64,000 bases of DNA from Antedon mediterranea. Lineage: Eukaryota > Animalia > Echinodermata. Under the pieces are notes generated by a model that made no database searches, was not told the origin of the DNA, and worked only from the letters and a program-made list of their open reading frames with translations. Positions 1 through 52,300 of this stretch are shown here, one piece after another; within the stretch, counting starts at the first letter, position 1; each line of letters starts with the position of its first letter. The translations under genes were made by a program, and so were the position numbers. The stretch spans positions 22,737,432 through 22,801,431 of the forward strand of contig NC_092679.1 of assembly GCF_964355755.1 (NCBI RefSeq). The letters are read 5' to 3'.

Positions 1-1370
1 TCATCAATTATCGATACTTCGTTTTCGTCAAATTCACAACTTGCACATGTTTGATTTTTATGATCTGTAACATTACTATCAAATCTATTAGTTCTGTCAT
101 TCATTTTGCTACTATTTTGTGATTTCACATCGTCAGTCGCTGTGTTGTCGTTTTCTTCAGTACATTTCATTTTAAAGTCGTCATCAGTTTTCATTTCTGA
201 ATTGTCATTTTTACCTTTCATTAAAATAATATCTTCGCCAATCCGTTCCATAGTATCGCAATCATTCTTGTGGTGTTTTAAATTCAGGTTCATATTATCT
301 TGTGATTCTTTGTTATCAATCTTCTTACTTTTGACAAAACGACCCTTGCTATTTCGTTTCGAACCACCACCTGATTGTTGTTGTATTCCGTTTGTTACCT
401 TTGTATTTTTCAAAACATCACACATAAGCTTACCATTCATTTCGTCATTTTCCTTGTATTCTCTATAAGTACTTGTATTCATGTTCCATTCCATTTTGTT
501 ATTATTTCGTCTTTCATAGAAATCTTTTACACCTTTGCCGATATATTTTACACCTGGTTCTATAATTATACCATTTATAACGCACTTTCTCCTTTTCTTA
601 TTTCCTCTATTTTTACATCTTTTTTTTCTGTTGTCGGTTCTTTTCTTTGATCTTACTCTCATCCAATCACTACCAAGTAAATCTTCACTTCCTGTTTGTT
701 GACATTTTAATTTTGCATTATTACAACGTTTTTCTTTATTTTTCGTTAATTCTGGAAAGTCTGAAGTGACAGATTCATCAGGTTCTAGAATCGTATATCT
801 ATTGAAATGACAGGGAATACCTATTTCACCCAACATGTTATCAACTAAATTACTATTCCCACACATTGAACAAATCCAAATTACCCTGGAATTACATAGT
901 TTGTCTTCAAAAACATCTCTTACACATTTCACATGAAAATATTGACTACAACGGTCACATGTTATGCAATTGTCTACTTTCACTTCAATATTACAGAAAT
1001 CGCATGTATCATCAAACTCTGAAGTGACCTCTGTACCATAAGATAATATGTTTATGATATCATCAATTATTCCTTTAAATTCAGTTGTATCTTTCATAAA
1101 TTCACAATTGACATTACCTGTATCATCATTTCTCTTGTCTTTGACATTCTCAGTTGAACAGCATTCATCAAGTAGGTCCAAGATGTCATTAACAACTATT
1201 TTAAATTCTGCTGTCTTATCCATAACTCCATTATTAACATTACCAGTTGTATTGACAAAAATCTGCTTTTTACTTGTAACTTCTTTATTCACATTCTTAC
1301 ACAAATAAATTATCATTGTAAAGATAATCAACAAAAAGATACCAACTACTGCTATGAATTCCATATCCAT
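1..1370 (-). CDS. Partial ORF (>=456 aa, open to the window edge): N-terminal hydrophobic helix, PHD finger, low-complexity K/N/D-rich region; probably transposon-encoded
   Basis: Hand translation from ATG 1370 (MDMEFIAVVGIFLLIIFTMIIYLCK...) has no stop down to base 1. Contains CDFC...CITCDRCSQYFHVKC...WICSMC, the C4HC3 PHD spacing with Trp before the last Cys pair. Missing from the ORF track because no stop lies in the window. Confidence 0.8.
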   Translation of the reverse strand, partial: MDMEFIAVVGIFLLIIFTMIIYLCKNVNKEVTSKKQIFVNTTGNVNNGVMDKTAEFKIVVNDILDLLDECCSTENVKDKRNDDTGNVNCEFMKDTTEFKGIIDDIINILSYGTEVTSEFDDTCDFCNIEVKVDNCITCDRCSQYFHVKCVRDVFEDKLCNSRVIWICSMCGNSNLVDNMLGEIGIPCHFNRYTILEPDESVTSDFPELTKNKEKRCNNAKLKCQQTGSEDLLGSDWMRVRSKKRTDNRKKRCKNRGNKKRRKCVINGIIIEPGVKYIGKGVKDFYERRNNNKMEWNMNTSTYREYKENDEMNGKLMCDVLKNTKVTNGIQQQSGGGSKRNSKGRFVKSKKIDNKESQDNMNLNLKHHKNDCDTMERIGEDIILMKGKNDNSEMKTDDDFKMKCTEENDNTATDDVKSQNSSKMNDRTNRFDSNVTDHKNQTCASCEFDENEVSIID

Positions 1371-1940
1371 TATTCAAAATTTGTATAAGAAACAAATTTC
1401 TTCAAATTTATAATCTTTGTTTACAAATTAAATTAAAATGTATTCTGCAATTCCAATGAATATTACAATTAGGTTCTTTTTATCAATTCAAACTTCAAAA
1501 AAGAAATCCTTGCTACAACAAAATAAATTATTAAAAATTCCAAAAACAAATCAACTTTATATTGTCTTTTGTTTCTATGACTTTTAACTTTTGTCCTAAT
1601 TTCTTTTCTCTTTGTCAATATTTTTTTTGTCTGCTTTTTTTCAATAATTCGATTATACAATTTCACTGAATAAAAAAATTAGCTTCTGCTTAATATTGGC
1701 TTGATGAAATACTTTATATTAATTTAAACTTCTCTGTAATACTTGGTTATGCTAAATAGTTTCAGATTCTAATTTTTATTCTTTTTACAATTCTACTTAA
1801 TAACAGATTCAAATAAAAGTGATATTTAAATCTTCTTTAATTAATTCTTTTGTAATAAACTCTGTTTAATATTTATTTTTTTATAATAAGCTTCTGTTTT
1901 ATTCTTCAAACTTTTGTTTGTATAATCAAACTTTAACTTT

Positions 1941-2200
1941 ACACTTTTGCTTTTGCAAAAATGGTTTTGTAATAAACTTTTGTTTATTAATTGTTTCCTT
2001 GTGATTAACTTCTGTTATCTTCAAGGTTTTACACTTTTGCTTTTGCAAAAATGGTTTTGTAATAAACTTTTGTTTATTAGTTGTTTCCTTGTGATTAACT
2101 TCTGTTATCTTCAAGGTTTTACACTTTTGCTTTTGCAAAAATTGTTTGTAATAAACTTTTGTTTATTAGTTTTTTCCTTGCGATAAACTTCTGTTTACTT
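1941..2200. repeat. 90-bp tandem repeat, about 2.8 copies
   Basis: ACACTTTTGCTTTTGCAAAAA recurs at 1941, 2031 and 2121. Confidence 0.9.
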
Positions 2201-2939
2201 CAAGAATGTTTTAAAGATACTTTTAAAAAATGTTTAAAAAGAAATTGTGCATAAATATTAAAATTCGGTAACCCCTCGTAGAAACTCTCTTTGGAGAGTG
2301 GATCTTTTTCTAAAGACCCGGATCTCTTCTGAGATCCAGTGGGTTTATATAAGACAGTCACCTACAATAAAAGAAAAAAAAAAGAGTTAGTTATTAATTT
2401 TAAGATACACTGTACAGTACTAAGAATTACAGTCAAACAATTATAAATTGAATCAGTAGATAAATCAATGTTTTTACAAATACCTAAATAATAATATACA
2501 CATCCCCCCTGTGGAATGTAACATGATCTATTGGGCCTAGCAAAACAAATTAGGACCAACTCATTACTAAATTCAGGATAGACCCATTTTATAAAATTGC
2601 AAATTTATTTCTGGAGAAACTGACCACCACATTTATGTTAAAAAGGATGATTGTCCCAATTTTTGAAGTAAATTGTGATAATATATTTGTGACTTTGGTT
2701 TATACAATATAAATAAATCACTATAGAAGATATTTTGACTTAAAAATATGTCAAAACTTCATTACATGGAATGTGTCGGAAACAAATTCTTTCATAACAA
2801 TTTCACCTTCAAAATTAATCTGAAAATAGGTTTAATTATTCAATGTTCTAATAAAATAGAATTTTATACACAAAAATATTTGGTCACTCAGTATAGTAAA
2901 TTTACAAACAACACATGTTTATCAATTATTGGAGGGCAT

Positions 2940-5900
2940 AAAGTAAGGAAAATATGTTTTTTCCGTTTTACAGATAATTTTCTAATACTCACAGCTGTAA
3001 CTGGCACTGTATATTTTCTGTACAACTACAATCTAAAAAATAAAAGGAAAATCATTAATAATGGCAATAAACAACATTAACACTTTTTCAAAATCAACAT
3101 GCTTCTTAATCAATGTCTGAAAAATTAAGAAATTTTCTCAAAATGAATTTGGGTATTAGACAGCTGGTTAGGGCCTACATGTTGTCTCAATGCTAATTTC
3201 ATTTAATATTTTATTCACAAACCATAAAATCTGAATTATGTAAATGTTTCATAATAGAACATGCCTACAAAATAACAGGCAACGGTTCACAAAGTAAAGA
3301 AAATATGTTTTATCCGTTTAACAGATAATATACTAATACTCACAGCTGTAGCTGACACTGTATATGTTCTACAATCTAAAAAAAAAAAAAAACAAGGAAA
3401 AACATTAATAATTGGCAATAAACAACATTAACACTTTTTCCAAATCAACATGCTTCTTAATCAATGTCTGAAAAATTAAGAAATTTCTCAAAATGACTTT
3501 GGGTATGAGACAGCTGGTTAGGCCTACATGTTGTCTTAATGCTAATTTCATTTAATATTTTATTCACAAACCATAAAATCTGAATGATGTAAATGTTACA
3601 TAATAGAAAATGCCTACAAAATAACAGGCAACGGTTCACAAAGTAAAGAAAATATGTTTTCTCCGTTTAACAGATAATCTACTAATACTCACAGCTGTAG
3701 CTGACACTGTATATTTTCTACAATCTAAAAAAACAAAACAAGGAAAAACATCAATAATTGGCAATAAACAACATTAACACTTTTTCCAAATCAACATGCT
3801 TCTTAATCGAGGTCTGAAAAATTAAGAAATTTCCTTAAAATGACTTTAGGTATGGGACGGCTGGTTAGGGCCTACATGTTGTCTCAATACTACTTTCATT
3901 TAATATTGTATTCACAAACCATAAAATCTGAATTATTTAAATGTTTCATAATATAAAATGCCTACAAAATAACAGGCAACAGTTCACAAAGTAAGGAAAA
4001 TATGTTTTCTCCGTTTAACAGATAATCTACTAATACTCACAGCTGTAGCTGAAACTGTTAATTTTCTACAATCTAAAAAAAACAAGGAAAAACATTGATA
4101 ATGGCAATAAACAACATTAACACTTTTTCCAAATCAATATGCTTCTTAATCAATGTCTGAAAAATTAGGAAATTTCCTCAAAATGACTTTGGGTATGGGC
4201 CGGCTCATTGCGGCCTACATGTTGTCTCAATGGTAATTTCATTTAATTATTTGATCACAAACAATAAAATCTGAATTACGTAAATGTTTCATAATAGAAA
4301 ATGTTTACAAAATAACAGGCAACAGTTCACAAAGTAGGAAAATATGTTTTCTCCGTTTAACAGATAATCTACTGATACTCACAGCTGTAGCTGAAACTGT
4401 ATATTTTCTACAATCTAAAAAAAAACAAGGAAAAACATTGATAATGGCAATAAACAACATTAACACTTTTTCCAAATCAACAAGCTTCTTAATCAATGTC
4501 TGAAAAATTTAGAAATTTCCTCAAAATGACTTTGGGTATGGGTCGGCTAATTGGGGCCTACATGTTGTCTCAATGCTAATTTCATTTAATATTTTATTCA
4601 CAAACCATAAAATCTGAATGATGTAAATGTTTCATAATAGAAAATGCCTACAAAATAACAAGCAACAGTTCACAAAGTAAAGAAAATATGTTTTCTCTGT
4701 TTAGCAGATAATCTACTAATACTCACAGCTGTAGCTGACACTGTATATTTTCTACAATCTAAAAAAAAACAAGGAAAAACATTAATAATTGGCAATAAAC
4801 AACATTAACACTTTTTCCAAATCAACATGCTTCTTAATCGAGGTCTGAAAAATTTAGAAATTCCTCAAAATGACTTTGGGTATGAGACAGCTGGTAAGGG
4901 CCTACATGTTTTCTCAATGCTAATTTCATTTAATATTTTATTCACAAACCATAAAATCTGAATGCTGTAAATGTTTCATAATAGAAAATGCCTACAAAAT
5001 AACAGGCAACTGTTCATAAAGTAAGGAAAATATGTTTTCTCCGTTTAACAGATAATCTACTAATACTCACAGCTGTAGCTAAAACTGTATATTTTCTACA
5101 ATCTAAAAACAACAAGAAAAAACATTGATAATGGCAATAAACAACATTAACCCTTTTGCTAAATCAACATGCTTCTTAATCAATGTCTGAAAAATTAAGA
5201 AATTTTCTCAAAATAACTTTGGGTATGGGCCGGCTGATTGGGGTCTACATGTTGTCTCAATACTACTTTCATTTAATATCTTATTCACAAACCATAAAAT
5301 CTGAATTATGTAAATGTTTCATAATATAAAATGCCTACAAAATAACAGGCAACAGTTCACAAAGTAAGGAAAATATGTTTTCTCCGTTTAACAGATAATC
5401 TACTAATACTCACAGCTGTAGCTGAAACTGTTAATTTTCTACAATCTAAAAAAAACAAGGAAAAACATTGATAATGGCAATAAACAACATTAACACTTTT
5501 TCCAAATCTACATGCTTCTTAATCAATGTCTGAAAAATTAGGAAATTTCCTCAAAATGACTTTGGGTATGGGCCGGCTGATTGCGGCCTACATGTTGTCT
5601 CAATGGTAATTTCATTTAATTGTTTGATCACAAACAATAAAATCTGAATTATGTAAATGTTTCATAATAGAAAATGCCTACAAAATAACAGGCAACAGTT
5701 CAAAAAGTGAAAAAAGTAAGGAAAATATGTTTTCTCTGTTTAGCAGATAATCTACTGATACTCACAGCTGTAGCTGACACTGTATATTTTCTACAATCTA
5801 AAAAAAAAAACAAGGAAAAACATTAATAATTGGCAATAAACAACATTAACACTTTTTCCAAATCAACATGCTTCTTAATCGAGGTCTGAAAAATTAAGAA

Positions 5901-7030
5901 ATTCCTCAAAATGACTTTGGGTATGAGACAGCTGGTTAGGGCCTACATGTTGTCTCAATGCTAATTTCATTTAATATTTTATTCACAAACCATAAAATCT
6001 GAATGCTGTAAATGTTTCATAATAGAAAATGCCTACAAAATAACAGGCAACTGTTCACAAAGTAAGGAAAATATGTTTTCTCCGTTTAACAGATAATCTA
6101 CTAATACTCACAGCTGTAGCTGAAACTGTTAATTTTCTACAATCTAAAAACAACAAGGAAAAACATTGATAATGGCAATAAACAACATTAACCCTTTTCC
6201 TAAATCAACATGCTTCTTAATCAATGTCTGAAAAATTAAGAAATTTCCTCAAAATAACTTTGGGTATGGGCCGGCTGATTGGGGTCTACATGTTGTCTCA
6301 ATACTACTTTCATTTAATATCTCATTCACAAACCATAAAATCTGAATTATTTAAATGTTTCATAATATAAAATGCCTACAAAATAACAGGCAACAGTTCA
6401 CAAAGCAAGGAAAATATGTTTTCTCCGTTTAACAGATAATCTACTAATACTCACAGCTGTAGCTGAAACTGTTAATTTTCTACAATCTAAAAAAAACAAG
6501 GAAAAACATTGATAATGGCAATAAACAACATTAACACTTTTTCCAAATCAACAAGCTTCTTAATCAATGTCTGAAAAATTTAGAAATTTCCTCAAAATGA
6601 CTTTGGGTATGGGTCGGCTAATTGGGGCCTACATGTTGTCTCAATGCTAATTTCATTTAATATTTTATTCACAAACCATAAAATCTGAATGATGTAAATG
6701 TTTCATAATAGAAAATGCCTACAAAATAACAGGCAACAGTTCACAAAGTAAGGAAAATATGTTTTCTCTGTTTAGCAGATAATCTACTAATACTCACAGC
6801 TGTAGCTGACACTGTATATTTTCTACAATCTAAAAAAAACCAAGGAAAAACATTAATAATTGGCAATAAACAACATTAACACTTTTTCCAAATCAACATG
6901 CTTCTTAATCGAGGTCTGAAAAATTAAGAAATTTCCTCAAATAAACTTATTTTATACACAAACAATAAAATCTGAATTATGTAAATGTTTCATAATAGAA
7001 AATGCCTACAAAATAACAGGCAACAGTTCA
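2940..7030. repeat. ~345-bp tandem repeat, about 12 copies
   Basis: AAAGTAAGGAAAATATGTTTTCTCCGTTTAACAG-like unit starts near 2940, 3291, 3640, 3988, 4331, 4674, 5018, 5361, 5712, 6058, 6402 and 6744; the last unit is internally deleted. Confidence 0.97.
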
Positions 7031-9127
7031 CTCCCAATCATGAAATCATTAATCATCTCTACAAACTATTTATTTAATATACACTACTTACAATATTCTG
7101 GAGATACTAAAGTAGAAACAATTGTGTATCTCTTCCAACAGCTACAAGACAAAAATATATTATTATTATAAATATCAATACAAATTGTGATCAAAACATC
7201 CACAATATTTGTAACAATGACAGGTGCGAAAGAGAACTGCGCTGACCTACGTCACTACTACTAGGACTACTGGAGTAAGCCTAGACAACATGCTATTGTA
7301 AGAAGAACGAGTCATTGTTTCTTCTCTTTAATAATTTATACAACTAAAAATTAAGCTAGAGTAAGAGTTAATATAATATAAGCCAGGTGCAAAAGGGAAC
7401 CTAGCGCCGTTTAGTCCTACTAAAAACAACAAGTATTCTTGTACAGGCTAGGCCTAGGTACACTATGAATGTAGCAGACATATTTGTTCGTATTTACCGG
7501 GACCGTATTTAACATACACATGGCCATACACGATTGTCGTGCTGCTACGAAAGCCATCGGGCTGAAAAACGTCACGACGTTTGCCATCTCTGAAAGTCTG
7601 ACATCCTTCCGTATATCTATAGTAGGCTAGGGTATCGTTAGTAAGTATCAATTACAAAACAACTACAAATCAAACAATCCACATAATTTCTTACCTATTT
7701 CTTATAGTATATCAATTCTCAACAAACTTGAGTTTGTTATTTATTTATTTAATCGTTGAAGTTCGACGATATAAAATGGTATTTGTAACAATATTATCAG
7801 AGAGCGACTCTTAAAAACCAACATGGAGTTTACCAACGACATACCACAACACAACACGTTGTCGAATTTTCTCGAAATTCGGTTCACCTACAGTATGGCA
7901 TGCAATCCTCGCCAAAATTACCAATATGTAACGAATAACGAAAATTAGTTTTCACGTCAGACCTATGTATTCTACGTGTATATTAGACGTTGCGTTTTCG
8001 CGGATAACCTAACTCGTCCGCAGTGACGAGTTCAAATCTAGTTATAAATTTAAGATTGTTGGAATAAGTTAATAATGGTAATTGAAATGGGATAATGAAT
8101 GCGAATTTAACCTTTGACGTGCAGTCACATATTGCTCGTATAATAACCATATGATTGATTTTGTTAACTCAAGTGACTTACTTAAAATAATGATATAAAT
8201 GCTTGTATTTACTTGTACCAACAATGACAGACGTTTTAGAAGGAGTTGTAATATGATGAAAGATTCCGGAAATGTAAAATTACATGTAAAATTGTAAAGA
8301 CCTTACAGAAGAAATTACGTTATATAACAAGTGACGATTATGTGAGATGAGACGCTAGGGAATCAAGTGACAAGTTATTGTCAACTAAGATGTGATGGCT
8401 ATTACTATATAGATGATCTAAAAGCGTGATTTTCATAACAAAATACGTTTTGAATACAAAATAGTAGAAAGGGATTTAACAACTGCTGAACGTGTAGCTC
8501 TCTATCTGATATGCATTGCATAGACCTGAAACACTCAGACGTTTTCAAACTCCAAAATTTGCCAAAGTTTTGAAAGGTGATTTAAAGTCTTAGGGTACAC
8601 TTGAAAACTCGAGCAACCTCCTGTTGAATTTGTAAAGAAAAGTTTCCAAGTGTTCTATTGTAGAACAGAGCACAGAAAACATAAATCTACACTAGAAATC
8701 TGTAGTTTAAAATCGAAAAAACTCGAACCAGATTTCAAACACAAATTTAGTTTTCTAGTGTAGACTGTGCACATGATTCTTCTCAACACTCCCGCCCGTG
8801 TTCTACACTAATAAACTTTAGTCTACAACCATAATTGACAAAATAGAAAAAGAGCAAACTCGTTTTTCAGACAGTTTGCTAGACACACATTGGCAAACAA
8901 CAGCAACTAGTTTGCATTAGTTACGCTGTATTATTTTTTTGTGATAAACAAGTTTACTAAAATGTTTGTGAACTAAAATAACATTGTTCTTATTCCAAAT
9001 CTCAGTCTGCCAACTATTTTCTGCAGTATTCCAATACTGACAAACTTATTTTGCTAACTCGATTCACACGTTTGCAAATTAAATTTTGCTGTAATTTTGT
9101 TTGAAGACAAAGCAAACAATAACGTAC

Positions 9128-12100
9128 CAGATACCAAAACCAGGTATATGTTTCTTGATAATCTTGTCCATCCAAATTGTTCAGCTTGTTGTCCAGGTAC
9201 AAAATCACCCAAGCCGACTGTTGTCGTTGAAATAAAGATGAAATAAAAACTGTCAAAGTACCTCCATTTCGGTTCAAGTACAGTGAATACAGCGGCCGGT
9301 ATAAAAACCATAAAAGCCAATATCGTAAGTACCAATATTGATAGATGCAGGAGGTTTATGCTTAGTTTTGCCACTTTGTAATCTGAAAATTGATAGGAAT
9401 TTGGTAAAATTAAATGTGATAAACAGTTTTAGATTACATTTCCATGTCGTCTCCTCGTAACTAACATGATTCTCCATTCTTACATAAGGTCTACATAAGA
9501 AATGAGAACAATTGGATGTATTTGTCTTGTTTTCTGGTGTAGTACTATTTCGTTTTGAATTGACATAAATGGTAGTGATATGCCCAAATATGGTAGTGAT
9601 ATGACATCATCATTGGCACATCACATTTTTTGGCACATAAAGTTTGATAGTGTAGACAGACCTTTAGAGTAAGATAATTAAATATATGATAATAAATAAA
9701 TGAAACTAAATAAGTTCTTCCCATTGTTAAAAAGGGGAGTATTATTTAATTTATCTTGTTAAAAAGGTAAAGATTTATATTCTGCGTTTTGTGTCTCAAA
9801 ATGAGAGAATGGCTTTCTGCCCTTTGGTTTCAGCATTTGTAACTCATTGTTGTTGTTATATTAACATAGGAATTCAAAGATTCTCATCAATGATGCCAGC
9901 ACTTAGAGTTTGGATCTCATTAAACTGATACTACTTGTATGTATTAATAGTCATTGGGTATCGTTACAACTCACTTAGTTTGTTTCGTAAGTACCGCAAC
10001 AGCTTATCTGAACATTTTCCAAGAAGTGCCATCAATCGACCTAGGAACAATAAGGTTACTGGAACGCCGATGGTGATGTAAACAACACAGAACGCTTTTC
10101 CTGATGTAGACAATGGAGATGCATGGCCGTAACCTACAATGAAATATATAAATAACATTAATTTAAACAAACAAACAAACAAAGTTTTAATAATGCTCAA
10201 CCTACATAGGAACCTATAGAATATATATATATATATAAATACGTGCGCAACTCAACACTAGTTAATAATAATAATATCCTGGATTTATATAGCGCCTAAT
10301 GTTGTGAAGCATCTAAGCGCTGAACATTATTACCGGATACCCCAGTCATTTTTTGGGGATCAAACATAACCATAGTCCCATAATGCAGCTACAGCGCAAA
10401 CTTATGTCTTGATCTAACCGGTTTCCCATTTATACACCTGGCTGAAGAGGCAAACGTAAGTAATGTATCTTGCCTACTAAAGATACAAGCAATGCGTCGA
10501 GAGTTGGATTCGAACCTTGATATCACGAACGTCTAACAGACTGCGCCACACGCGCCATACTATATACGTAAACTATTGAGCTTTCGTTTTTTGAACGGAG
10601 AAGATAATTGTATAGACGTAAACAATATTAATCTACGCATGCGTATACACCCTTCTGTTCATATATCAGGTTATGTTTTGTTAATTTATTCTTCGTCCAC
10701 CGTCCACCCGGAAAAAAGGCACACCGAATGAAGCTGTAGCTCAACACAATTTTCGTTATAAATATTAAATAATACATTTTTACGTAAACGTTTTCACTAT
10801 TAGGGCTTTGCCGTATATATTACTTAGTCAAACGCCTGTGATGAACTTTAACATTACTACGGTATAGTTATCTGTCAGACTTAAACGATTTACGAAAACA
10901 TAGTTAAAAGCAGTTGAACATTACCATGTAACTGATAGGGTTAGCAATTTGATTGATATAGTTTAGCGATGTTTTGTCGTCGATCGGAGTCGTGTAATCG
11001 AAATGCTTTTTTGAAAGAGGACCAGACTGCACGTTCGTCAGATAAAATGTACATCTACCTAACACTAATTAACATAAACACTGATAACAAAGGTTAGCCT
11101 ACCTATATTTATTCAAATATGAGGCTTATTTGTATAGGAAACTGACAGTTAAACTATAGAACAGCCCTCGAATATCACTCGAGAATAGACGGATTATCAC
11201 ATACTGTAGTATGAATTATAATTTCAAACAATGATCGATGAATAAATACAATGCGTTAGGGATTTACAGTGCACACATAAACACATAGTCTTTGTTTCAG
11301 ACGGAGTTTTGTCTTAATATTAGTAAAAAGATAAATATTTTGGCACATATGGCGTTTCATACGTATACTACTTGATTTTGGATACTCCATTTTCAGACAA
11401 AATCGAAATAAAAACAAATAAATTTTAAAAAAAGACAATGAATACAGACTTGGGGTAAGTCTAATAAACATACGGTACATACACCTAAAGAATTTTTTTG
11501 GTGAAATAATGTTGAATTACAGCTGTATTCGCGTTTGCAAGATGCTTTTAATATCTAAAAGTTCAATCACCTTTAGAAATACTCTTCATTAAAAAGCTAG
11601 ACTTAATTAACATTGAACTTTACGAATGCATGTGTTGAAAGAAGACCGCCGCAATTGTAATTACAAATATAATATTTCATATTGTCTGTTTCACACCTAC
11701 ATAAACGCGTTTTTACCAACTCTGACGTAAATTAGAAGCCCTTCTTCCGTACTCTGATGCTCCTGTCCAAACACAAAAAGCGACTGGTTTATACGCATGC
11801 GTCTGTGTAGGCCATATCACGTATTTTTTAATCTAATTAATTCTGCCTAGAGTCGCGAGATTTGTTGCGAAGGGTTTTTTCTCGGATATACTCGAACCAA
11901 CGACTTTTAGATTAATAATCTGGCGCTCATATCTCTATTAGATTATGACGATGATCGCACACCAGTAGGAGTTTTTACTTAATATTGGTAAAAAGATAAA
12001 TATGTTGGCATACGTATTATATTATACGTATTCCAACATATTTATCTTTTTACCAATTAAGTAAAAACTCCTACTGGGCCTACTACTTGAGCTTGTGTTT

Positions 12101-19631: not shown

Positions 19632-20392
19632 TACCGTAATTATAGAATACTAAACGCCTCCTTTGAATAAACGCCATCGAGTGTTGTGAATAAACGCCAC
19701 CTAGTGTTGCGAATCAACGCCGCCCAGTGTTACGAATAAACTCCACCCAGTGTTGAGAATAAACGCCGACCAGTGTTGTTACGAATAAACTCCACCCTGT
19801 GTTGAGAATAAACGCCGCCCAGTGTTACGAATAAACGCCACCTAGTGTTGAGAATAAACGCCGACCAGTGTTGGGAATAAACTCCACCCAGTGTTGTGAA
19901 TAAACGCCACCTAGTGTTGAGAATAAACGCCACCTAGTGTTGCGAATAAACTCCACCCAGTGTTGTGAATAAACGCCGAGTACCAGTGTTACGAATAAAC
20001 GCCACCTAGTGTTGAGAATAAACGCCGACCAGTGTTACGAATAAACTCCACCCAGTGTTGAGAATAAACGCCGACCAGTGTTACGAATAAACGCCACCTA
20101 GTGTTGAGAATAAACGCCGACCAGTGTCGCGAATAAACGCCGACCAGTGTTGAGAATAAACGCCGACCAGTGTTGAGAATAAACGCCGACCAGTGTTGAG
20201 AATAAACGCCGACCAGTGTTGAGAATAAACGCCGACCAGTGTTACGAATAAACGCCACCTAGTGTCGCGAATAAACGCCACCTAGTGTTACGAATAAACG
20301 CCACCCAGTGTTGCGAATAAACGCCGCCCAGTGTTGTTACGAATAAACGCCGACCAGTGTTGAGAATAAACGCCGACCAGTGTCGCGAATAA
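19632..20392. repeat. 23-bp minisatellite (GAATAAACGCCGACCAGTGTTGA)n, about 30 copies, possibly grown from a MITE subterminal repeat
   Basis: Contiguous 23/26-bp units preceded by TACCGTAAT...TAAACGCC. Confidence 0.9.
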
Positions 20393-21586
20393 AAAGTACG
20401 CCAAACTTTACGTAGATTAATGCTTTCAATCATTATAACTTGATTAAATGGTCCAAAGTACAAAGTGAGTGTTTCTGACAAAATATTAAAAACAACGACG
20501 GTGGTTGTAAAAAAAGTGCCCAAATACCGTAGGCCTATTAGCTCCACTACACTGTTCGAATAATATGCAACTAAAATGAAAGATTGCCAAACGCATATGA
20601 CAAAACAACAATATCACAAAATCATAATTTGATCAAATTAGGTGTAAATACTAATTAATATTGTCAAAGTATACGAAAATTTTGAAATGTATTACCTAAG
20701 GTGATTTAACACTGGCTAATAATAGTAATAATAACCTCTCAAGGGACTAGTAGATCTATAGTTACTTCTGCTGGACAATAGTACAGAAAGCACTTTAGAG
20801 AGATTCATTACGTCTAATTACAACTTGTTACGCAGTGTCTTCCTACGCGTTAAGACTAGCGTGTGATCGAATAAACGCCGCAGTCAATTAGGCTCCGCTA
20901 GAGTTAGAGCAATACCAAATAAAATGTAAACATAGAGAGTCCCATGTGCTTTATTTTATACTACAATTATAAGATGTCCAAAAACATCACCCGACTATAA
21001 TGATGTGAATCCAAACATTTGTTTTGATATTCAGTATTTTATTTACGGCACACTTGTAAACAATACAAAATATTTTTTAATATAATATAATAATTAAACA
21101 TACACTAATCTTGCAAGAAGACATACTTGTTACGCAAGACCCGCCCTAAACGAAAAAAAAAAAATAATAATGCAGGGTAGGGTTTTGGTTACAGTTAGGA
21201 GGTTATTAAAAAGCCAGTTGTTGATCGATAGAGGGCAGAATTCATATTTTTCTTTATAATATTTTTTTCTTCAAATTTATTTTTTGTAGTAAGAGTAAAC
21301 TGCAATTTTTATATACCCTTCCAAATGCTTTTTCAGCACGACTTATACAATTACATGTGTTTTATTTTTTTAACACGTTATTACAGTTAGTCGTTTCCAA
21401 AGTTTGATAGGGTTAAAATAAAGAGGGCGTTCGTGAGCCTTGAATCTCGAGCGAACAGGTTGTAGGTCAAAGTTAACGTTATTAATCCTCACATGAGTCG
21501 TTTAGTCGGTCACACGTCTCGTGAAGGACAGGGCTGAGCCTAACAATAAACTGTTGCAACTTAGAGAGATGAATTGAAAAACAAAT

Positions 21587-24500
21587 ATGCATGATGCATA
21601 TGAAGCTCAGCCTATTCTTGAAAAACTTCCTCTACAAATAGAGTCGATTGCTTCTCATGGTAAGCACGTTTGCAATGTTTTTCTAGTCTTGCACCAGAGC
21701 TGGCTAGGCCTAGCTAGCTAGTGTAGCCTAACCTAGGCCTAGGCCCAGTATAACCGATTGTTTTCAATTTGCAAGGTCGAGATCAAAGGCAGAAAAAGGC
21801 AAATCGTAGGCCTAGGCTAGGCAAATAGTAGGCCTAGGCATAGTAATACTGTATTGACGTTGCCTATCTAGACGAATCCTTGGTATTTTGACAGATGTAT
21901 GACATATAGGCAAGGCCTACTAGCTAGGCTAGGATGTTTTAAATAAATTAAATAAATGTTTGAAATAAATAAGCCTAGGTAGCTAGCTAGGCCGCTAATT
22001 AATATTAAATATAAAGTATAATTGTTATAACAATAGTATTTATAATTACCTCTGTAATACAAACATTAAAGTGAAACATTTAAGTAAAGGGAATAGGCCT
22101 AGGCCTACCTAGTTTTCATAGATTAGTAGTCATGAAAAAATGATTTTTTATCATGTAAAAAGTGAATGTGAAAAGAATTTTTTTTTTTTTTCAGGTGATC
22201 AATTGCTTGTAGGGACGAAACCAGGTCATCTTCTTGTATACACTGTAACTGGATCAAACGCAAGTATGTGAAACAGGACTTCATTAAGCAAAATGGAAAT
22301 GAATCCAACAATAATTTATTTTATTTTTACTTTAAAAAAGAAGTTCTGATTTTATCTGATTTTGTAGGGAATTCTATAAAAAGGTTAAAGGTTAAAGGGG
22401 GCGGATATAGCGGGGTAGTATTTGGGGTGTGCATGCTTTTTTTGACAGGTGAAATTAAATTTCCGTTTGATATCTATTTTTTAAACAGAACTATATATGT
22501 TAGGGCTCCCCACGTTTAAAAAATCCTATATCTCGGAGCCGTGATTCTGACCCCATGAATGAATTTCAAATAAACTTACAGTGGTACCTGTATTTTTATC
22601 AAGTATCATGATGATCTAAAACTTAGTTTGTTGAGAAGTTTGATGAGTAATGGAGAGATAATTACGCGGTGAGTCAAGGTCAGCTGTGAATCACACTTCA
22701 GGTCACAGTTTAACTGATGATCAATACATTGTATGTGAATGTTCTGAGTTGAGGTCATTGCATGAGTAACCCCCGCCCATCATTATTGAGCATATCTACA
22801 TTATTCTTTATAAATTTGTCATTTCATTTTGCTTTCTCTGTAGGTGGTCAAAATGTAAAAGTCAATCTTTTGCGGTCCAACAAGTCTTTCTCCAAGCGGC
22901 CAATCCAACAGCTAGCATGTATTCCAGAGCAACAGATCCTTGTCAGTTTGTCAGGTAATATTATACACCGCACTTTCTAATTCACAGCATTTGATTGGTT
23001 TAAAAAAAAACTCACCATGGCTAATATATTTTTAACTATTTCCTACTACTGCTGAATATTCTTTTTTATTTATTTTTTATTTTATTTAAAAATTTTTAGA
23101 TTTCCCCTCCCTCGGTCAATATTTGTATTGCTATTTTATTAGCAGTGATATTGATTCATTTCTTTTTAAAATCTCTTTGGCAAAAAGAATGTATAATGTA
23201 AAGCATAATGAAAACAAAACATTGTGATTCGTTTATTTTAGCCGGACTGGATCAGGTGTAAAAGATACTTAATTTGTTGTTTGTTTTTCAGATGCTTTGA
23301 TCAGTGTTCACGACCTAGCACTCTTCACATTAATATGCACCATCAACAAAACAAGAGGAGCAACACTGTTTTCAGTTGACCTCAAGGTCAGTCTAAAGCC
23401 TTGATCGCACTAATTTGGTAAAATTTCCCGAGTCGCTGGCTAAAGTGATCAAGAAAGTATAATCCGAAAACTGGCTACAATTCCCTTTGCGTTAAATTAA
23501 CCTAGTTCAATGGTTTTAACTTTTACCGACCACTGCCTGCCCAGTAAAACTTACCTTAAAACTAAAAACGCTGGCTAAAAAGTCCAATCCAAACATGAGA
23601 CTCGGGTTAAAACACATTTAGTATATCATGTAAAATAGACAAATTACATGATTCATTAAACTAAAAAAATGATAATTAAAAAATATAATATGTTGTATGT
23701 AGTACAAAAAAGTACCCCCACCTCCCTTCCTCTCCACCATTTTTTTTTTGTGCAGGCTATCCAATCAACTCTTGTATTTTACAGAAAGAGACGTCTACCA
23801 CAGGGCATATAGAATACAACCTTAGACTGTGTGTTGCAGTGAAGAGAAAGCTACAGCTGTACTATTGGAAGAACCGCAACTTTAATGAACTTAGGGTAAG
23901 AAAATGTGGGCAACTAATAAATCGTCAATCGTTCGATTTATTTAGGAACATTAACAGATTCCTTAAATCAACGTAAATAAATTTAATTTTTAAATAAATC
24001 AGTTATGTCCTATGATCATAAAATAAATTTCTAAATTTAAATTTTCTTCCGATTCATATAATACATGTAAGTTAATATGCAACATGTTCTGTCCACAGAC
24101 TGAGCTGGGTATTCCCGATGTCCCCAAGGCCATGTCATGGTGCAAAGAGTCTCTCTGTGTTGGACTAAAAAGGGACTATTTTCTTATAAATGTAAGTAGA
24201 ACAAGATTCAATTAAAACAGTAAAAAAAAATAAAATAGTGAAAATTAGACCATATTATGATGTTTACTATGAAGTTATATTTTTGAAGACAAATGTCTTT
24301 TTCTATTTTTGTGCCCAAATTACCTGGCTGAATCGAAAATGGCCCTTACTCTCCTGAGTGTTAACATAGGAAAAATAATTCCTTGAACATACCTCTGTGA
24401 TAATGGACTAGTCTGACAAAGTATTAGTTATATAGAATCAAACTCTGAAATTGTTTTTTTTTAAACACAGATACCATCATAATTTGTTGTTCTTAATTTC

Positions 24501-27500
24501 TTTGCATTTGTAGACAGAAAGCGGTGCAATGAAAGATCTATTTACAACGGGTAACACATCTCAGGTAGAGCCCACAGTCACCCCACTATCAAACAATCAG
24601 CTAGCCCTAGGCCGAGATAATATGAGTATAGTAATAGATGGCAAAGGTCAACCTGCTAAAAAGTATGCCCTATCATGGGCAGAGGTTCCACTTGTTCTAG
24701 GTAAGTCAGGGCAGCTTGAAAACTATTGATAATGTATGACCATAGAGGTGCAGTATTACATAACTAGAGAGTCAACTAGGTGACAAACAAATATGCTTCA
24801 TGGAGCATTACTTCTTGATCTCTCGAGTAAATTGAGGCAGGCAGTCTAGTTTTTTTTTAAATTAAAATTCTGTTTTTTTATATTTATGGTTGAAATGCTT
24901 GCTTGCATTAATTAATTAATATATTTACTTACCACTTGTTTTTTTAATTTATAACAGAAATTTATTATTTTCATTTTATGTCTTATAGCTTATGACCAAC
25001 CATACCTAATCGCTGTTTTACCAAAACATGTTGAAATTAGAACAATAGACCCTAAGTTATTAGTGCAAAATATTGATCTCAACAAACCCAAATTTATTTC
25101 AGTGGCAAGGTAAGATTATTTTGACACTGAGATGTCAACCATGTGTGTGCCTGTTACCACCTGTAATACCAACCACCTGTATTTCCACCAGCATCACCAC
25201 CTGCATTACCTCTTGTACCACCTATATGACAACCAGTATTTACCACCTGTATTATCAAATGCATTCCCACCTGCATTTCCAAATGTACTGGCAAATGTAT
25301 TACCATCTACACTATGTTACCAGGATTTAATGTTAATATAAATATTGATATTATTGGTTACAGTAATAAATACATCTATGTGGCATCCCAAGATTTCATT
25401 TGGAGGCTAGCACCGTTTCCAATAACAACACAGATTGATGTTTTACTGAAAGACAAACAATTTGAACTTGCTCTTCATCTAGCTGTAAGTAATCAGCAAA
25501 AGTAGAAAGGTCAAAGGTTATACAGAAAGGCCAAAGGTTATACATAAAGTAAAGTAGAAAGGCCATGAGATATGAAAAATTTCAAAGGTTACATATCAAA
25601 TACAATTAATTATTTCAGTTTGTGTAACAAAATAAGTAACTTTAAAATATTATTGTATTTTTGAAAAACACAGAACATGACAGATGAAGATGAAGCAGAT
25701 AAAGAGAGGAGAATTCACAGCATTCAAAGTAAATTCGCGTTTAATCTCTTCTGCCAAAACCGCTTTGAAGAGTCAATGAAAATATTTTCCAAATTAGGAA
25801 CAGGTAAAATTTATTTATTTCTTTTATCACCTTTGACATTGCATTAGGATTCTTTTGGGGTGTTTTAATTAAATTGCACTTTTAACCTTTACAGTGCATG
25901 CAGTATAGTTTTGAAATGGACTGCCAAGATTCGAACTCGGTATTTCTCATTGGTAAATTCTTATTAATCATCAATATTAAAACTTTACTTTCAGATCCAT
26001 CATACGTAATTGGGCTGTATCCAGACCTTTTGCCAAATGACTACCGAAGTAAGTTGGAGTACCCGTCAAGACCCCCAACTTTAATAGGGCAGGAACTTGA
26101 AAAAGGTTTGACCGCCCTAATTGAATACCTCACCCAAAAAAGACAGGACCTGATGAAGGCAGGACCCAAAGAACAAACACAGTCAACGACAATCGTAGAT
26201 GGAACAACAAAAGTTATCCCACGCAAACAAATGAGTCAGATTGTGGATACTACCTTACTCAAGTGCTATTTAATGGTAGGTTTCATGGGTCAAAGGTCGT
26301 GTAGAATGGTCAAATGTTGTGTAGAAAGGTTAAATGTTATGTAGAAAGGTTAAATGTTATGTAGAAAGGTCAAATTTTATGTAGAAATGTCAAATTTTAT
26401 GTAGAAATGTCAAATGTTGTCAAATTGACTAACTTTTAGGAATTATATGATGTACAAAAAAAGCAGTGAATCTTTCAACTCATGAAATTCTCTTACCATT
26501 AAAATCATAAACTCTTTATTGATATTTATGTTTATTTTTTGTTATTTCTAAAAGACCAATGATGCCTTAGTAGCACCATTGCTTAGGCTGAAAGACAATT
26601 ATTGTCATTTAGAAGAAACGGAACGAATATTGAAAAAATATCAGAAGTACAGTGAACTTATTATATTGTATGAAAAGAGGGGATTGCACAAAAAAGGTAA
26701 TTTTCCCTATTCAATTCAATTTAAAACTTTTTTTCAGACAAACTGTCTATAAACATATAAATACAATCAAATAGAGCAGAAATACAAAGCATTTAGATAG
26801 GACCAAGAATTACTGTATCTGAAAAATGTTTCTTTCTTTTTTAAAGTTTCTTTTCTGATAATTTTTCTGCTTTTAACAGCTTTAGATCTTTTACTACGTC
26901 AGTCTCAAAAAGTAAACAGTCCTCTTAGAGGTCATGAGAGGACAGTGACCTACCTACAGTCATTGGGTCAAAAACACATCAATGTAATATTTGAATATTC
27001 TAAATGGGTATTAAAGGCTCATCCAGAAGATGGTCTAAAGGTAATTATAAAGCTATTATGACTCTGAATGTAATACATCCTTTTATATATGCAATAATAT
27101 TCTTTGGTGGTAAAACATTAGACGGATTCGGTTTTAAATGCATCACTAGTATTTGTCACACAACCTAGCTTGTGTGCTGGATTGTAAACAAACAATAACG
27201 TTTGCATAGGATTTTCGGACGTCATGTTTTATTTACACAGTGAGGTCATATGAGAAAATATTTTTTATAGTAAAATGGCCTAGTTAAGAAGTCAGTTAAC
27301 CACTACTTTCAATAAAAATAATACATACGCCATTAAAGATCACGGATTTCGTCCTCATTGTTCAAATCCAGAATGTCATTTTATGTTATTTACATGATTA
27401 AAATGATTATTTTTAATTCCAACTTTTATTTATTTTATTTAGGTTTTTACTGAAGACACACCAGAAGTAGAAAGTCTTCCAAGGGACATGGTTTTGGCAT

Positions 27501-30292
27501 ATTTAGAAGAGGTTGATCGGGAACTAGCAATACCTTATTTAGAACACATCCTTATCGAATGTTCAGATAACACCCCTCCTTTCCATAATAAACTAATCCA
27601 TTTGTATAGAGAAAAGGTTCAGGAAATGATGAAAGAGTACCTACCGTCGTTACCAGAAGGTTAGTACAGTTTGAGTGAAACATGATTTGAACCTAAACTT
27701 TTTACTGAAAAGCAAGCATTTTAACTGCAATGCTATAGAGCCACATTGTCATATATACGGTTGTCAGCAGGTCTCTCAAGACATCCTTTTGCCCCACTTT
27801 TCTGTCTTTGGCTTTTCTTTTCATCTGCTCTTTATCCACCATAATAAATCCTTTTCTTACATTTGGATGAATGAAGCCTAAGACAAATGTCCAGACTCTA
27901 GCCTCCATTTTACTTTCAACATTTTTAAATACATTTCAACCCTTTTAAAGAAACTCTTGTCAAATATAACAACCAGGTTTTTCCTTTTGTTTTTCATTTG
28001 CACAGGTCAGGCACCTGCTAGTGCTGGAATGGAACCAGGAGAATTAGGAGAAGTTCGTAGCAAACTTTTATTTTTTCTGGAGACATCACGGTACTACATA
28101 CCAGAACAACTTCTCACTCATTTTCCATTTGATGGTAGGTTAAAAGATTTATTGGAAGTTTTAAAAATTGTAATTACTTTTCCAATTCTATTAGCACTAT
28201 TGGTTTTTTTGCTTTATCTTATAGGATTCTTTGAAGAGAGGGCGCTGTTATTAGGACGTCTCGGTAGACATGAGCAAGCCTTAGCAATATATGCTCATGT
28301 CCTGAAAGACACGCAGATGGCAGAGGAATACTGCAGCAGAAATTACCATAAAGACATAGAGGGCAGTAAAGATGTAAGTAAACAAATATATCGTAAAAGC
28401 TACATAATTTTGTCCATTGAGAACAGTAGTTACAATTATTTAATTGATTTGAATTTTACAGGTGTACCTCAGTCTGCTCTGTATGTACCTGTCACCACCA
28501 GAAGCCAGTAGCTTAGGGGTTATGGAAAATGTTGCCTCACCTCAGCCTAACATTGATGCAGCTTTAACAGTGCTAGAAATGCACTATCAACAAATAGACA
28601 CAGCCAAGGTAAAGTTCGGTCTACACTATCAAACTATTTGACAAAAAAGTGATCAACATGAAATACTGTATTACAGAATTTGTACCTAACCCTATGATAC
28701 TGGAATAGGTCATATGTGGAGGTATACAGTAGCACTGGCAACTGGGTTCCAGTCAATCAATTCTGGATTTTAATTGGCCTTAGGTGAGTGTCTCTCGCTT
28801 GGAGTAAATTTCCTCTTTTTTTTATTTTTCAGGCCTTAGAGTTGCTGCCACCTACCATACATGTGTCTTGTATTTCAAATTTTCTTGAAAACGTCATGGA
28901 AAGCAAGGCTATACATAAACGAAGCCTACAGGTTCTACGAAGTCTACGTTTCTCAGAGAATTTACAGGTGTGTTAAAAAAGTGAAAGCCTGTATATATGT
29001 GTGCTCTGAGCTGTGCATGCATTTGTATGTATATACTGTATCACTGAAAATGTTTGGCTAAACTACTTTACCTTGATACAAAATGTATATTTATATTGTA
29101 GGCCTACAACTACTATTAAAGCCCCATTCCCTACGTTTTTTAGATCTAATTTAAGATCACAAACTATATTTAATGTAAAAATAATACTATATGGTCCTAT
29201 TGCGATAACTTTTTTCGTCTTTAAACGGTTAAAAATGTGAAAAATAAGTCGATTTTAATAATTATAGCGGCCCGCTATAAATCCCAAAATGCATTGCGCG
29301 CGGATTGATATTTTTGTTTTTCACCTGTAATTCGCCCACTTTTCGATCGATCGTGAGGCCAAAACAAATGGAAGACTCCTAACTTTTCAGCGAAAATACC
29401 AAGTTTTCCCCAATTTGTATCAACGGAGTCTGGCAAAAATAGAAAGACAATTAATGCAGCAACTATACAACGTCAGGCTAGGTATATAGCTAGCGTACGA
29501 TGTTCGTACGTTACCGATGTTTACCAGCTAGGCCTACAAAACTAAGCCTAGCCAGGCTAGGCCTAAGACCGTCCACGAGAGGTCGATCGCCGCGAGCTAC
29601 TTAGGTAGTGCATTGTTTCTCACTTTTTATCATAATTTACCATAAAACGTACATTTAAGACAAGGAATGACATGGTTTAATGTTTTTAAAGTTATATATA
29701 TGTATTATTTTCCAAAAAACGTCCAAAATTGCAGGGAAGGGGTCTTTAAATGAACACCTTCAGGATGCAATAAGTGTCACTTTAATATGGGTATCATTGA
29801 GTTGAGTCAAATAACTTTCCCTCATTCATTTAATTAAACTTTAAGAAAAGGAATAGTTTTGAAATATGTGTGTTGATGTTATGCTTGATGTTAAAATTGC
29901 ATTGCAACTTTTAGCCTGAAAACTGGCACAGTTTAAAAGATGAGTGCAATTTAGTGGCAGCTAAAAGATATGGACGGAGAGTGCGCAGTTCAGCCTAGTA
30001 ACATGCGAGTCACAGGAGAATGCGCAGTTCAGCCTAGTAACCTGCGAGTCGCAGATATTTTTATTTGGTTGAAGTACAGTACTGTTATGTGTATTAAAAT
30101 AACTTATCTTTTTAGGTTCGTGAACAACACATCTTTCACCAAAGCAAGAAGTGCGTTATTCAAGAAGACAAAAACTGTCCGGTTTGTCGGAAAAAGATCG
30201 GCAACAGCGCATTTGCTCGTTATCCTAACGGGGTCGTAGTTCACTACTACTGTTGTCAAGATAGGAACATTTGTCCTGTAGATCCTCTATGA
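21587..30292 (+). CDS. VPS39: Vam6/Vps39 HOPS subunit, 19 exons: 21587-21659, 22195-22263, 22844-22954, 23292-23386, 23785-23895, 24099-24191, 24514-24700, 24989-25109, 25364-25484, 25674-25803, 25995-26275, 26555-26696, 26880-27040, 27443-27659, 28006-28134, 28225-28373, 28462-28608, 28833-28967, 30116-30292
   Basis: N-terminus MHDAYEAQPILEKLPLQIESI; DPSYVIGLYPDLLP; QIVDTTLLKCY; FFEERALLLGRLGRHEQAL; C-terminal CPVCRKKIGNSAFARYPNGVVVHYYC. All introns GT-AG with consistent phases. Confidence 0.97.
26290..26420. repeat. 20-bp minisatellite (TGTAGAAAGGTCAAATGTTA)n in a VPS39 intron; related units at 25500-25590
   Basis: About 6 tandem copies. Confidence 0.8.
29120..29745. mobile_element. Non-autonomous TTAA-flanked DNA transposon (Kolobok-like) in the last VPS39 intron
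   Basis: TTAA|AGCCCCATTCCCTAC ... GCAGGGAAGGGGTCT|TTAA, imperfect 15-bp TIRs. Confidence 0.7.
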
Positions 30293-40921: not shown

Positions 40922-41468
40922 AATTCTTCTAAAGTTTCAGCAGTATTGTCAACTATGGCAATTCTACTGAAGTTTCAGCAGTATTGTAACTGGCAATTCT
41001 ACTGAAGTTTCAGCAGTATTGTAACTTTGCAATTCTACTGAAGTTTCAGCAGTATTGTAACTGGCCATTCTACTGAAGTTTCAGCAGTATTGTAACTGGC
41101 AATTCTACTGAAGTTTCAGCAGTATTGTAACTGGCAATTCTACTGAAGTTTCAGCAGTATTGTAACTGGCAATTCTACTGAAGTTTCAGCAGTATTGTAA
41201 CTTTGCAATTCTACTGAAGTTTCAGCAGTATTGTAACTGGCCATTCTACTGAAGTTTCAGCAGTATTGTAACTGGCAATTCTACTGAAGTTTCAGCAGTA
41301 TTGTAACTGGCAATTCTACTGAAGTTTCAGCAGTATTGTAACTGGCAATTCTACTGAAGTTTCAGCAGTATTGTAACTGGCAATTCTACTGAAGTTTCAG
41401 CAGTATTGTAACTGGCAATTCTACTGAAGTTTCAGCAGTATTGTAACTGGCAATTCTACTGAAGTTTT
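40922..41468. repeat. 35-bp minisatellite, about 15 copies
   Basis: AATTCTACTGAAGTTTCAGCAGTATTGTAACTGGC head-to-tail. Confidence 0.97.
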
Positions 41469-43112: not shown

Positions 43113-43124
43113 AAAATAATAATA

Positions 43125-51890: not shown

Positions 51891-52300
51891 TTTCGTATAA
51901 CCATTGGATGAAGACAAAAAAAAAATAATCAAAGACACAAGAAGAATCAAAACGGAAAACGGAAGCAAGCGGACAAGAACTGTTTCGTTTGGACACTTTT
52001 AACTTCACGCCGGGGTTTTTCGAACGTTTTTTGAACATTTACCTTTTTTTTAATTTTGAACTTTGACCATTTTGAACATTGATGAACACTTTTCGCATTT
52101 CTTGAATTCGTTGTTTGAAAATTTGAACGTTGTTGAACACTCTTAGCATTATCTCCTTTAATTCGTTTTAATTGGATCCGAAGCATTTGGGGTAAGTCAG
52201 AACCATTTTGATTTTGATTTGTAACCTTGATTGAAAAGTGAGAGTTTACATATACACTAAATTGTTTTTGATATTTGATTAATAATTAATATTATAAAGT

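What the first reader, a model, noticed from the sequence alone, without database searches (positions are those of the whole stretch)
2940..7030. Tandem array in which each ~345-bp unit carries a candidate 32-nt micro-exon
Seen on the minus strand of each unit: a long T tract ending TAG | ATTGTAGAAAATATACAGTGTCAGCTACAGCT | GTGAGT (e.g. exon 3724-3693). The GTGAGT donor and TAG acceptor are kept in all copies read while flanks vary, and the exon has no ATG. A first-exon donor AG|GTAAG lies at 7695/7694, and further acceptors at about 2362 and 1667 precede the PHD ORF. Inference: the array is a stack of about 12 repeated 5'UTR exons giving a variable-length leader. It lies on the same strand inside KCNK intron 3, so it could also trap channel transcripts before TM4.
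Basis: partly seen in the sequence, partly recalled or inferred. Interest (0 to 1): 0.7.

Follow-up and report, generated by a model that had tools for sequence, protein, structure and literature searches.

The report
Transposon repeat array of spliced micro-exons
A rolling-circle transposon, likely from a feather star, carries twelve tandem repeats that each hold a tiny non-coding exon, and RNA shows at least the last two spliced together and onto the exon leading to its transposase, so satellite-like DNA here likely forms the transposase's untranslated leader and would make translation depend on complete splicing.

Summary
Twelve units each carry TAG|32-nt exon|GTGAGT; the last exon is 40 nt. 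RNA contigs from one run show two junctions absent from the DNA control: exon 11 to exon 12 (GT..AG, 311 nt skipped) and micro-exon to the acceptor at 2361. Both rest on short anchors of 15-20 nt. The 'PHD ORF' is the N-terminus of a Helentron transposase, 86% identical to a 2,659-aa crinoid Rep-helicase-endonuclease protein. The element ends at 8041, its leader region has roughly 4-11 copies per genome, and the sequenced DNA sample has the empty site. The 991-nt leader before the ORF holds 1 ATG against 11.6 expected, while each repeat intron holds 6-8. Splice sites are no more conserved than the rest of the unit (P about 0.1). Not shown: the number of exons per mRNA, use of the 5' exons, any KCNK trapping. 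Verdict: a real, spliced, repeat-built transposase leader, probably amplified neutrally; a splicing gate is the bold reading.

The parts
8011..8041 (+). Terminus of the rolling-circle element: 8-bp-stem palindrome (8011-8032), 9 nt, ending CTAG at 8041, followed by TT of the host
   Evidence: Sequence and fold. Single-copy DNA contigs fit 9593 down to 8042 and two of them run on 1,215 nt unlike the window = empty site; depth of bin 7953-8103 is about 840-1,590 x single copy
7695..7800 (-). Candidate first leader exon ending at the donor AG|GTAAG (5' end not mapped; 7800 is a placeholder)
   Evidence: Motif only; ATGs further upstream at 7824, 7842, 7901; use not seen, tables were cut
7092..7141 (-).
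   Evidence: Motif only; no junction seen; homology to the repeat unit not significant (P 0.49)
2940..7030 (-). Tandem array of 12 exon+intron units of 342-352 bp; first unit partial, lacking 58 bp
   Evidence: near-identical non-adjacent pairs u2/u8 and u4/u7 98.8%, u3/u6 97.4%, u5/u9 97.1%
6798..6829 (-). Micro-exon 1 (32 nt); exons 2-10 at 6486-6455, 6143-6112, 5797-5766, 5445-5414, 5102-5071, 4758-4727, 4414-4383, 4072-4041, 3724-3693
   Evidence: Sequence; exons 2-10 were not in any stretch laid with reads
3344..3375 (-). Micro-exon 11 (32 nt), spliced to exon 12
   Evidence: RNA-only joint 3032-3344, 311 skipped, CT..AC, depth 86.1, 1 contig, 20 letters on the shorter side
2993..3032 (-). 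Micro-exon 12 (40 nt), spliced to the 2361 exon across a 631-nt intron
   Evidence: Reciprocal RNA loose ends at 2361 (2 contigs) and 2989 (1 contig); mapped
1371..2361 (-). 991-nt A-rich untranslated part of the ORF-bearing exon, with a 90-bp x3 repeat (1938-2204) and one uORF of 9 codons (ATG 2252)
   Evidence: 1 ATG against 11.6 expected, 0 of 1000 shuffles as low; lowest of 506 windows; RNA graph branches exactly at 2361, DNA contig runs through
3..1370 (-). First 456 codons of a Helentron transposase (PHD-like finger at about aa 124-171); ORF runs off the window
   Evidence: 389 of 454 identical to P0001, whose domains are Herpes_teg_N, OTU, DUF6570, Helitron_like_N, PIF1, Exo_endo_phos; PHD below Pfam cut-off, 17.6 of 24 bits
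9128..9382 (-). Host KCNK exon 3 (exon 2 at 10133-9975, exon 1 coding 18718-18400); the element sits in the following intron, same strand
   Evidence: Ion_trans_2; exons 2 and 3 joined in one RNA contig; 244 codons open, phase 1

Best explanation
The array lies inside a multi-copy Helentron transposon, its last two micro-exons are spliced together and onto the exon that leads to the transposase ORF, and the whole stack likely forms the untranslated leader of the transposase mRNA. Shown: the 12 splice-site pairs, two junction types in RNA, the transposase identity, the element end at 8041, multi-copy depth, the empty site, and an ATG-poor leader. Inferred: a promoter inside the element end (about 7800-8000) drives a minus-strand pre-mRNA; one ancestral leader exon+intron was amplified head to tail by slippage or unequal exchange, as Helentron central repeats are; added units were tolerated because each adds 32 ATG-free bases while splicing removes its 6-8 intronic ATGs; all 12 exons are usually included. 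Predicted consequence: any retained intron puts ATGs and stops ahead of the ORF, so transposase output would fall steeply with splicing efficiency. I take amplification as mainly neutral and the gate as a by-product.
For: RNA-only joint 3032-3344 with GT..AG ends (X1 depth 86.1, X3 DNA 0), and reciprocal loose ends joining a micro-exon 3' end to 2361. The 19-nt loose end matches only micro-exon ends at up to 2 mismatches on both strands of the window, and the 15-nt one matches once, at 2343. An RNA contig ends exactly at 2361 and the unspliced branch starts 30 nt inside, while a DNA contig passes through. X1 is spliced RNA, since it joins KCNK exons 2 and 3. Transposase identity. Depth step and empty site at 8041|8042. 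Both array edges occur in other copies: a DNA contig at about 8.7 x single copy spans 2374-3067, and a loose end at 3290 reads a diverged upstream edge. ATG is the most depleted of 43 tested 3-mers in the leader. Neutral side: the exon varies as much as the intron; the joined exons have no frame over 32 codons and no unusual fold (z 0.34). Weak hint of many exons per RNA: the bin holding exon 1 is 1.70 x its intron positions in RNA against 1.03-1.23 in three DNA runs.
Against: Only one RNA run, labelled RNA by guess and held as contigs. The exon 11-12 joint is one contig with 20 letters on the short side, under the 30 that the tool advises. Only 2 of about 14 predicted introns were seen spliced; exons 2-10 were never laid. 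Unspliced contigs are also present (depth 19-35). RNA and DNA come from different samples, and the RNA carries variants of other family copies, so this copy's own expression is not shown. ORF depth (about 18-32 x) exceeds leader depth (about 4-11 x), so many copies may have another leader or none. No promoter or start site was mapped, and this copy's ORF beyond codon 456 is outside the window.
Confidence: 0.68

Rival explanations
1. The intron stack is a selected device. Twelve or more ATG-laden introns make transposase translation an all-must-splice switch, for instance open in the germ line only, or they shield a long A-rich ORF from surveillance of intron-poor RNA.
For: 76 ATGs in the 11 inner introns, none in the exons. 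No copy of 12 has lost a splice site. The invariant runs over acceptor and donor (16 and 15 columns) rank second and third of 49 runs. Precedents read as passages: P-element IVS3 splicing sets transposase output (PMC9762592); introns protect long A-rich transcripts from HUSH in human cells (PMC8770142).
Against: Splice-site invariance is expected by chance at 78% background (P 0.11-0.14), copies are not independent, and the acceptor run includes a right-aligned T tract. No tissue data. HUSH in echinoderms was not checked, and its protection did not need splicing in that paper.
Confidence: 0.2
2. Only the last one or two exons are real leader exons. The inner units are satellite-like filler that is skipped as one long intron or included at random.
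For: Junction evidence exists only for exon 11-12 and exon 12-2361 types. 32-nt exons are short enough to be skipped (general knowledge).
Against: Inner units have the same splice signals and 310-320-nt introns. The exon 11-12 joint shows a standard unit intron being excised. Exon-bin excess in RNA (weak).
Confidence: 0.2
3. The main effect is on the host: the same-strand acceptors trap KCNK transcripts after exon 3 and truncate the channel in TM4.
For: Any such splice adds only 5-29 codons before a stop. Strong acceptors, same strand.
Against: The KCNK contig in X1 (2,362 nt, depth 78) has no listed piece on the element and continues 959 nt elsewhere. The array is a family trait of many copies, so it did not arise for this locus. 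The insertion is polymorphic.
Confidence: 0.05
4. The repeated exons serve to release an intronic small RNA (snoRNA, miRNA or stable intron), as in repeat-built host genes.
For: The exon sequence is unconstrained and non-coding, as in such hosts.
Against: No Rfam match better than E 2.5 in 1-12000. One unit folds worse than its shuffles (z +1.14). The intron has no conserved core above background.
Confidence: 0.04
5. The joints are not splicing but genomic deletions in another copy, or assembly artefacts in a repeat.
For: Short anchors, one run, and different samples for RNA and DNA.
Against: Two different introns are cut exactly at predicted GT and AG. None of the four DNA-only joints has CT..AC ends.
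Confidence: 0.03

Closest known systems
Helentrons and their non-autonomous HINE/DINE-1 partners (PMC4067079, passages; oyster Cg_HINE, PMC7492417, passages)
   Same: Rep/helicase with fused AP endonuclease and OTU protease in the nearest relative; terminal palindrome 9 bp from the end; T-rich target; internal tandem 'central repeats' carried from copy to copy; abundant short partners sharing the end.
   Different: Here the repeats lie in an ORF-bearing element and are exon+intron units spliced into RNA. The oyster paper's main text has 0 occurrences of 'exon'. If 8041 is the structural 3' end, the ORF is inverted, as noted for Helentron-Da-40.
Canonical Helitrons such as Helraiser (PMC4778049, passages)
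   Same: Hairpin shortly before a CTAG end followed by T; elements can carry promoters and splice sites that make chimeric transcripts.
   Different: The CTAG end lies upstream of the ORF on the opposite strand; the relative carries an endonuclease domain.
EBV internal repeat 1 (W repeats) of the EBNA transcripts (bioRxiv 10.1101/2025.04.23.648900, passages)
   Same: Each tandem unit donates small exons to the 5' part of a transcript, so exon number follows repeat number; that study found skipping rare.
   Different: Viral; two exons per unit that encode EBNA-LP, with a promoter in the repeats. Here one non-coding 32-nt exon per 343-bp unit in a transposon. Analogy only.
P-element IVS3 (PMC9762592, passages)
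   Same: Transposase output depends on intron removal that the host can regulate.
   Different: One coding-region intron with shown regulation, against 12 or more leader introns with none shown.

Membership tests
Helentron | Rep + PIF1 helicase with C-terminal AP endonuclease in one protein | tested here: met
   In relative P0001, 86% identical over the 454 aligned residues; these domains lie beyond the window in this copy
Helentron | OTU cysteine protease (accessory) | tested here: met
   OTU E 2.8e-10 and Herpes_teg_N E 2.8e-08 in P0001
Helentron | Terminal palindrome or inverted repeat near the element end | tested here: met
   8011-8032, 8-bp stem, -10.0 kcal/mol, 9 bp from 8041
Helentron | Insertion in a T-rich target | tested here: inconclusive
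   TT follows the end on the + strand; the far side of the empty site was not printed
Helentron | Pair of 11-15-bp subterminal inverted repeats | not testable with these tools
   The other end is outside the window and no genome is held
Helentron | Interspersed, mobile copies | tested here: met
   Depth 7-11 x single copy inside the end, and an empty site in sample S2
Canonical Helitron | Hairpin plus CTRR at the 3' end, downstream of the ORF | tested here: not met
   The motif is present but upstream of the ORF and on the opposite strand
Canonical Helitron | 5'-TC start and A|T target | not testable with these tools
   Other end outside the window
Tandemly duplicated spliced 5' UTR exons | Exon-to-exon splicing at the predicted sites | tested here: met
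   Joint 3032-3344 and loose ends at 2361 and 2989 in RNA only
Tandemly duplicated spliced 5' UTR exons | Inclusion of most units in one mRNA that reaches the ORF | not testable with these tools
   Contigs only, no long reads
Tandemly duplicated spliced 5' UTR exons | Non-coding and free of upstream ATG | tested here: met
   392 nt joined, 0 ATG, longest open stretch 32 codons; candidate leader of 1,539 nt has 1 ATG
Small-RNA host gene array | Known or structured small RNA in each intron | tested here: not met

The most novel reading that the evidence does not exclude
Helentron central repeats, a known source of dispersed satellite DNA, can be amplified exon+intron units of the transposase leader, kept by selection as a twelve-step splicing lock: only nuclei that remove every ATG-laden intron translate the transposase, and repeat number tunes the element's activity.
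Probability: 0.2. Interest if true: 0.82.

Novelty: new variant of a known kind. Interest (0 to 1): 0.55.

Why it matters
Tandem repeats inside Helentrons seed satellite-like arrays in oysters and flies, and the passages I read treat them as captured or filler DNA. Here the repeat unit is a working exon+intron of the transposase transcript. That offers a concrete origin for such repeats, and it can be tested by scanning other Helentron repeats for splice-site pairs. It also makes repeat number a possible control on transposase expression through splicing. My searches of the held library (listings and abstracts only, except the papers named) showed no report of this arrangement; most subscription papers, Repbase and supplements were not searched.

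Tried and rejected
No genome is held, so other copies could not be read. The word-seeded protein search of residues 1-260 found nothing among 539 candidates; the ESM Atlas gave only PHD clusters at 0.75-0.76, a lead only. A pattern scan of metagenomes for the unit gave 0; P0001 in viral contigs 0 of 4 stretches; the alignment in metagenomes gave 1 of 43, a chance match inside a 980-aa bacterial-looking helicase-type ORF (family named from memory). No RNA holder is listed as such; X1 was judged RNA from its KCNK junction. Rfam and folding gave nothing. Remote homology of the unit to five flanking regions was not significant (P 0.10-0.57). No KCNK exon 4 candidate was found in 1-9127 by a crude scan. 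The 1667 acceptor has no joint among the 10 listed and no loose end among the 12 shown, with 31 hidden. The 5' exons could not be judged: one search showed 15 joints and hid 97, and showed 24 loose ends and hid 1,226, nearly all from a high-copy repeat at 9569-9666. My first reading, an accessory PHD gene near a canonical Helitron 3' end, was dropped. The first KCNK trap calculation used a wrong exon 2 boundary and was redone. The bacterial promoter scan is not relevant to an animal. Earlier-finding look-ups by sequence and by words were empty.

Full report
Observation. The array is real: 2940-6941, period 343, 11.6 copies, 91% matches. On the minus strand all 12 units carry a T-rich tract ending TAG, a short exon and GTGAGT; 11 exons are 32 nt and the last is 40 nt. 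The quoted 32-mer is exact in 4 of 12. Introns are 310-320 nt with 6-8 ATGs each. Non-adjacent units pair up at 97-99% identity (u2/u8, u4/u7, u3/u6, u5/u9), so blocks of units were duplicated. The invariant runs at the two junctions are the second and third longest of 49, a weak hint at most.

Splicing. Five runs hold the stretch, none recorded as RNA; four were laid. X1 is spliced RNA, because one contig joins KCNK exons 2 and 3 at their splice sites. X2-X4 are DNA of one other sample. On 1-3400, X1 has a joint 3032-3344 that skips 311 bases with CT..AC ends, exactly intron 11, at depth 86.1; X3 has none. X1 also has loose ends behind 2361 (2 contigs) and before 2989 (1 contig). The first matches only micro-exon 3' ends in the window at up to 2 mismatches (7 places, exon 12 among the best); the second matches once, inside the start of the 2361 exon. 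An X1 contig ends exactly at 2361 and the unspliced branch starts at 2332, while an X3 contig runs through. So a micro-exon is spliced to a micro-exon, and a micro-exon to the ORF-bearing exon. Limits: one run, anchors of 15-20 nt, unspliced contigs at depth 19-35 too, and exons 2-10 never laid. The RNA bears variants of other family copies, so it speaks for the family and not for this copy. The upstream exons (7695 donor; a new 50-nt candidate at 7141-7092) are unresolved because the tables were swamped by a high-copy repeat. No use of the 1667 acceptor was seen.

What the gene is. The ORF from 1370 is 98% identical over residues 19-220, and 389 of 454 overall, to a 2,659-aa protein named by its source as from the crinoid Antedon mediterranea. 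That protein carries Herpes_teg_N, OTU, DUF6570, Helitron_like_N, PIF1 and Exo_endo_phos domains, the Helentron layout of PMC4067079 (passages). Named relatives of the N-terminal finger are mostly from sea urchins. The PHD ORF is thus the front of a rolling-circle transposase.

The element. In three DNA runs, single-copy depth (278, 30, 48) holds from 8042 upward. Just below, contigs run at 7-11 x and the bin with the terminus at about 840-1,590 x (summed contig depth is not a true copy number). A palindrome at 8011-8032 is followed by 9 bases ending CTAG at 8041, then TT. Two single-copy contigs of 2,767 nt fit 9593 to 8042 and continue 1,215 nt unlike the window. I read that as the empty site, taking record orientation from record 9. 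The insertion is therefore polymorphic and likely young (one sample). Both array edges occur in other copies, so the array is a family trait. ORF depth of about 18-32 x exceeds leader depth of 4-11 x, so some copies lack this leader. Whether 8041 is the structural 5' or 3' end cannot be told without the other end.

The leader. The 991 bases from 2361 to the ORF have 1 ATG against 11.6 expected, with 0 of 1000 shuffles as low. It is the only one of 506 windows of that size with at most one ATG, and ATG is the most depleted of 43 tested 3-mers. The 12 exons joined give 392 nt with no ATG, no frame over 32 codons and an ordinary fold. The full candidate leader from 7800 is 1,539 nt with 1 ATG, whereas the 11 inner introns hold 76. 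This is what a scanned 5' UTR should look like (inference).

Mechanism. Most likely (0.68) one leader exon+intron was amplified head to tail, as Helentron central repeats are (PMC7492417, passages), and tolerated because splicing reduces each unit to 32 ATG-free bases. Promoter position, full inclusion and neutrality are inferred. A by-product is that every retained intron would block scanning to the ORF. Whether selection maintains this as a gate, like P-element IVS3 (PMC9762592, passages), or as intron cover for a long A-rich ORF (PMC8770142, passages), is open (0.2). Use of only the last exons is equally open (0.2). A KCNK trap would add 5-29 codons and stop, but the KCNK contig shows no piece on the element and that animal may lack the insertion. 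A small-RNA host has no support. Unchecked AI notes on this genome describe other exon+intron arrays in coding genes, which would fit a general tendency to such duplications.

Comparison and verdict. It is a Helentron by the relative's domains, terminus and mobility; the subTIR pair is untestable here. It works like EBV IR1 in that each repeat unit gives exons to a transcript's 5' part (bioRxiv 10.1101/2025.04.23.648900, passages), but it is non-coding and unrelated. Seven searches of the held library showed no description of Helentron repeats as spliced transposase-leader exons; I saw listings and abstract starts apart from the papers named, and no supplements. New variant of a known kind; interest 0.55.

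Noticed in passing
window 2361-2356 (minus): The 2361 exon begins GTGACT right after its AG, so the spliced junction resembles the micro-exon donor again; a possible recursive splice site, with no sign of use.
   Followed up: partly
window about 1225-1040 (minus), ORF residues 50-110: The helix that starts the sea-urchin relatives is present twice in this ORF, and a hydrophobic stretch precedes it; relatives align only from residue about 92, so the true start codon may be downstream of 1370.
   Followed up: partly
window 1938-2204: A second, 90-bp x3 tandem repeat sits inside the exonic leader and has no ATG on the sense strand.
   Followed up: partly
window 9569-9666 and 10257-10520: Very high-copy short repeats in KCNK introns; the first reaches tens of thousands of times single-copy depth.
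   Followed up: no
window 52298-57972 (+): LTR retrotransposon with gag zinc knuckle and an open 1,574-codon protease-RT-RNase H-integrase frame; Ty3/gypsy order by recall.
   Followed up: partly
window 43123-46748: Composite tandem array of 89/196/286-bp units at 93-97% identity; further arrays of 57 bp x17 (37398-38370), 35 bp x15.5 (40921-41467) and 23 bp x31 (19665-20393).
   Followed up: no
window 21700-29000 (+), 32874-35523 (+), 48226-48558 (-): Host genes: a WD40 protein; VPS39-like, WDR20-like and cystatin-like are names recalled from the translations and gave no Pfam hit for the fragments tested.
   Followed up: partly
P0003 cluster: A sea-urchin locus encoding only the N-terminal finger region is annotated with up to 11 isoforms, and hyalin isoforms of another sea urchin carry the same region at their N-terminus; possible exonised Helentron fragments or annotation fusions.
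   Followed up: no
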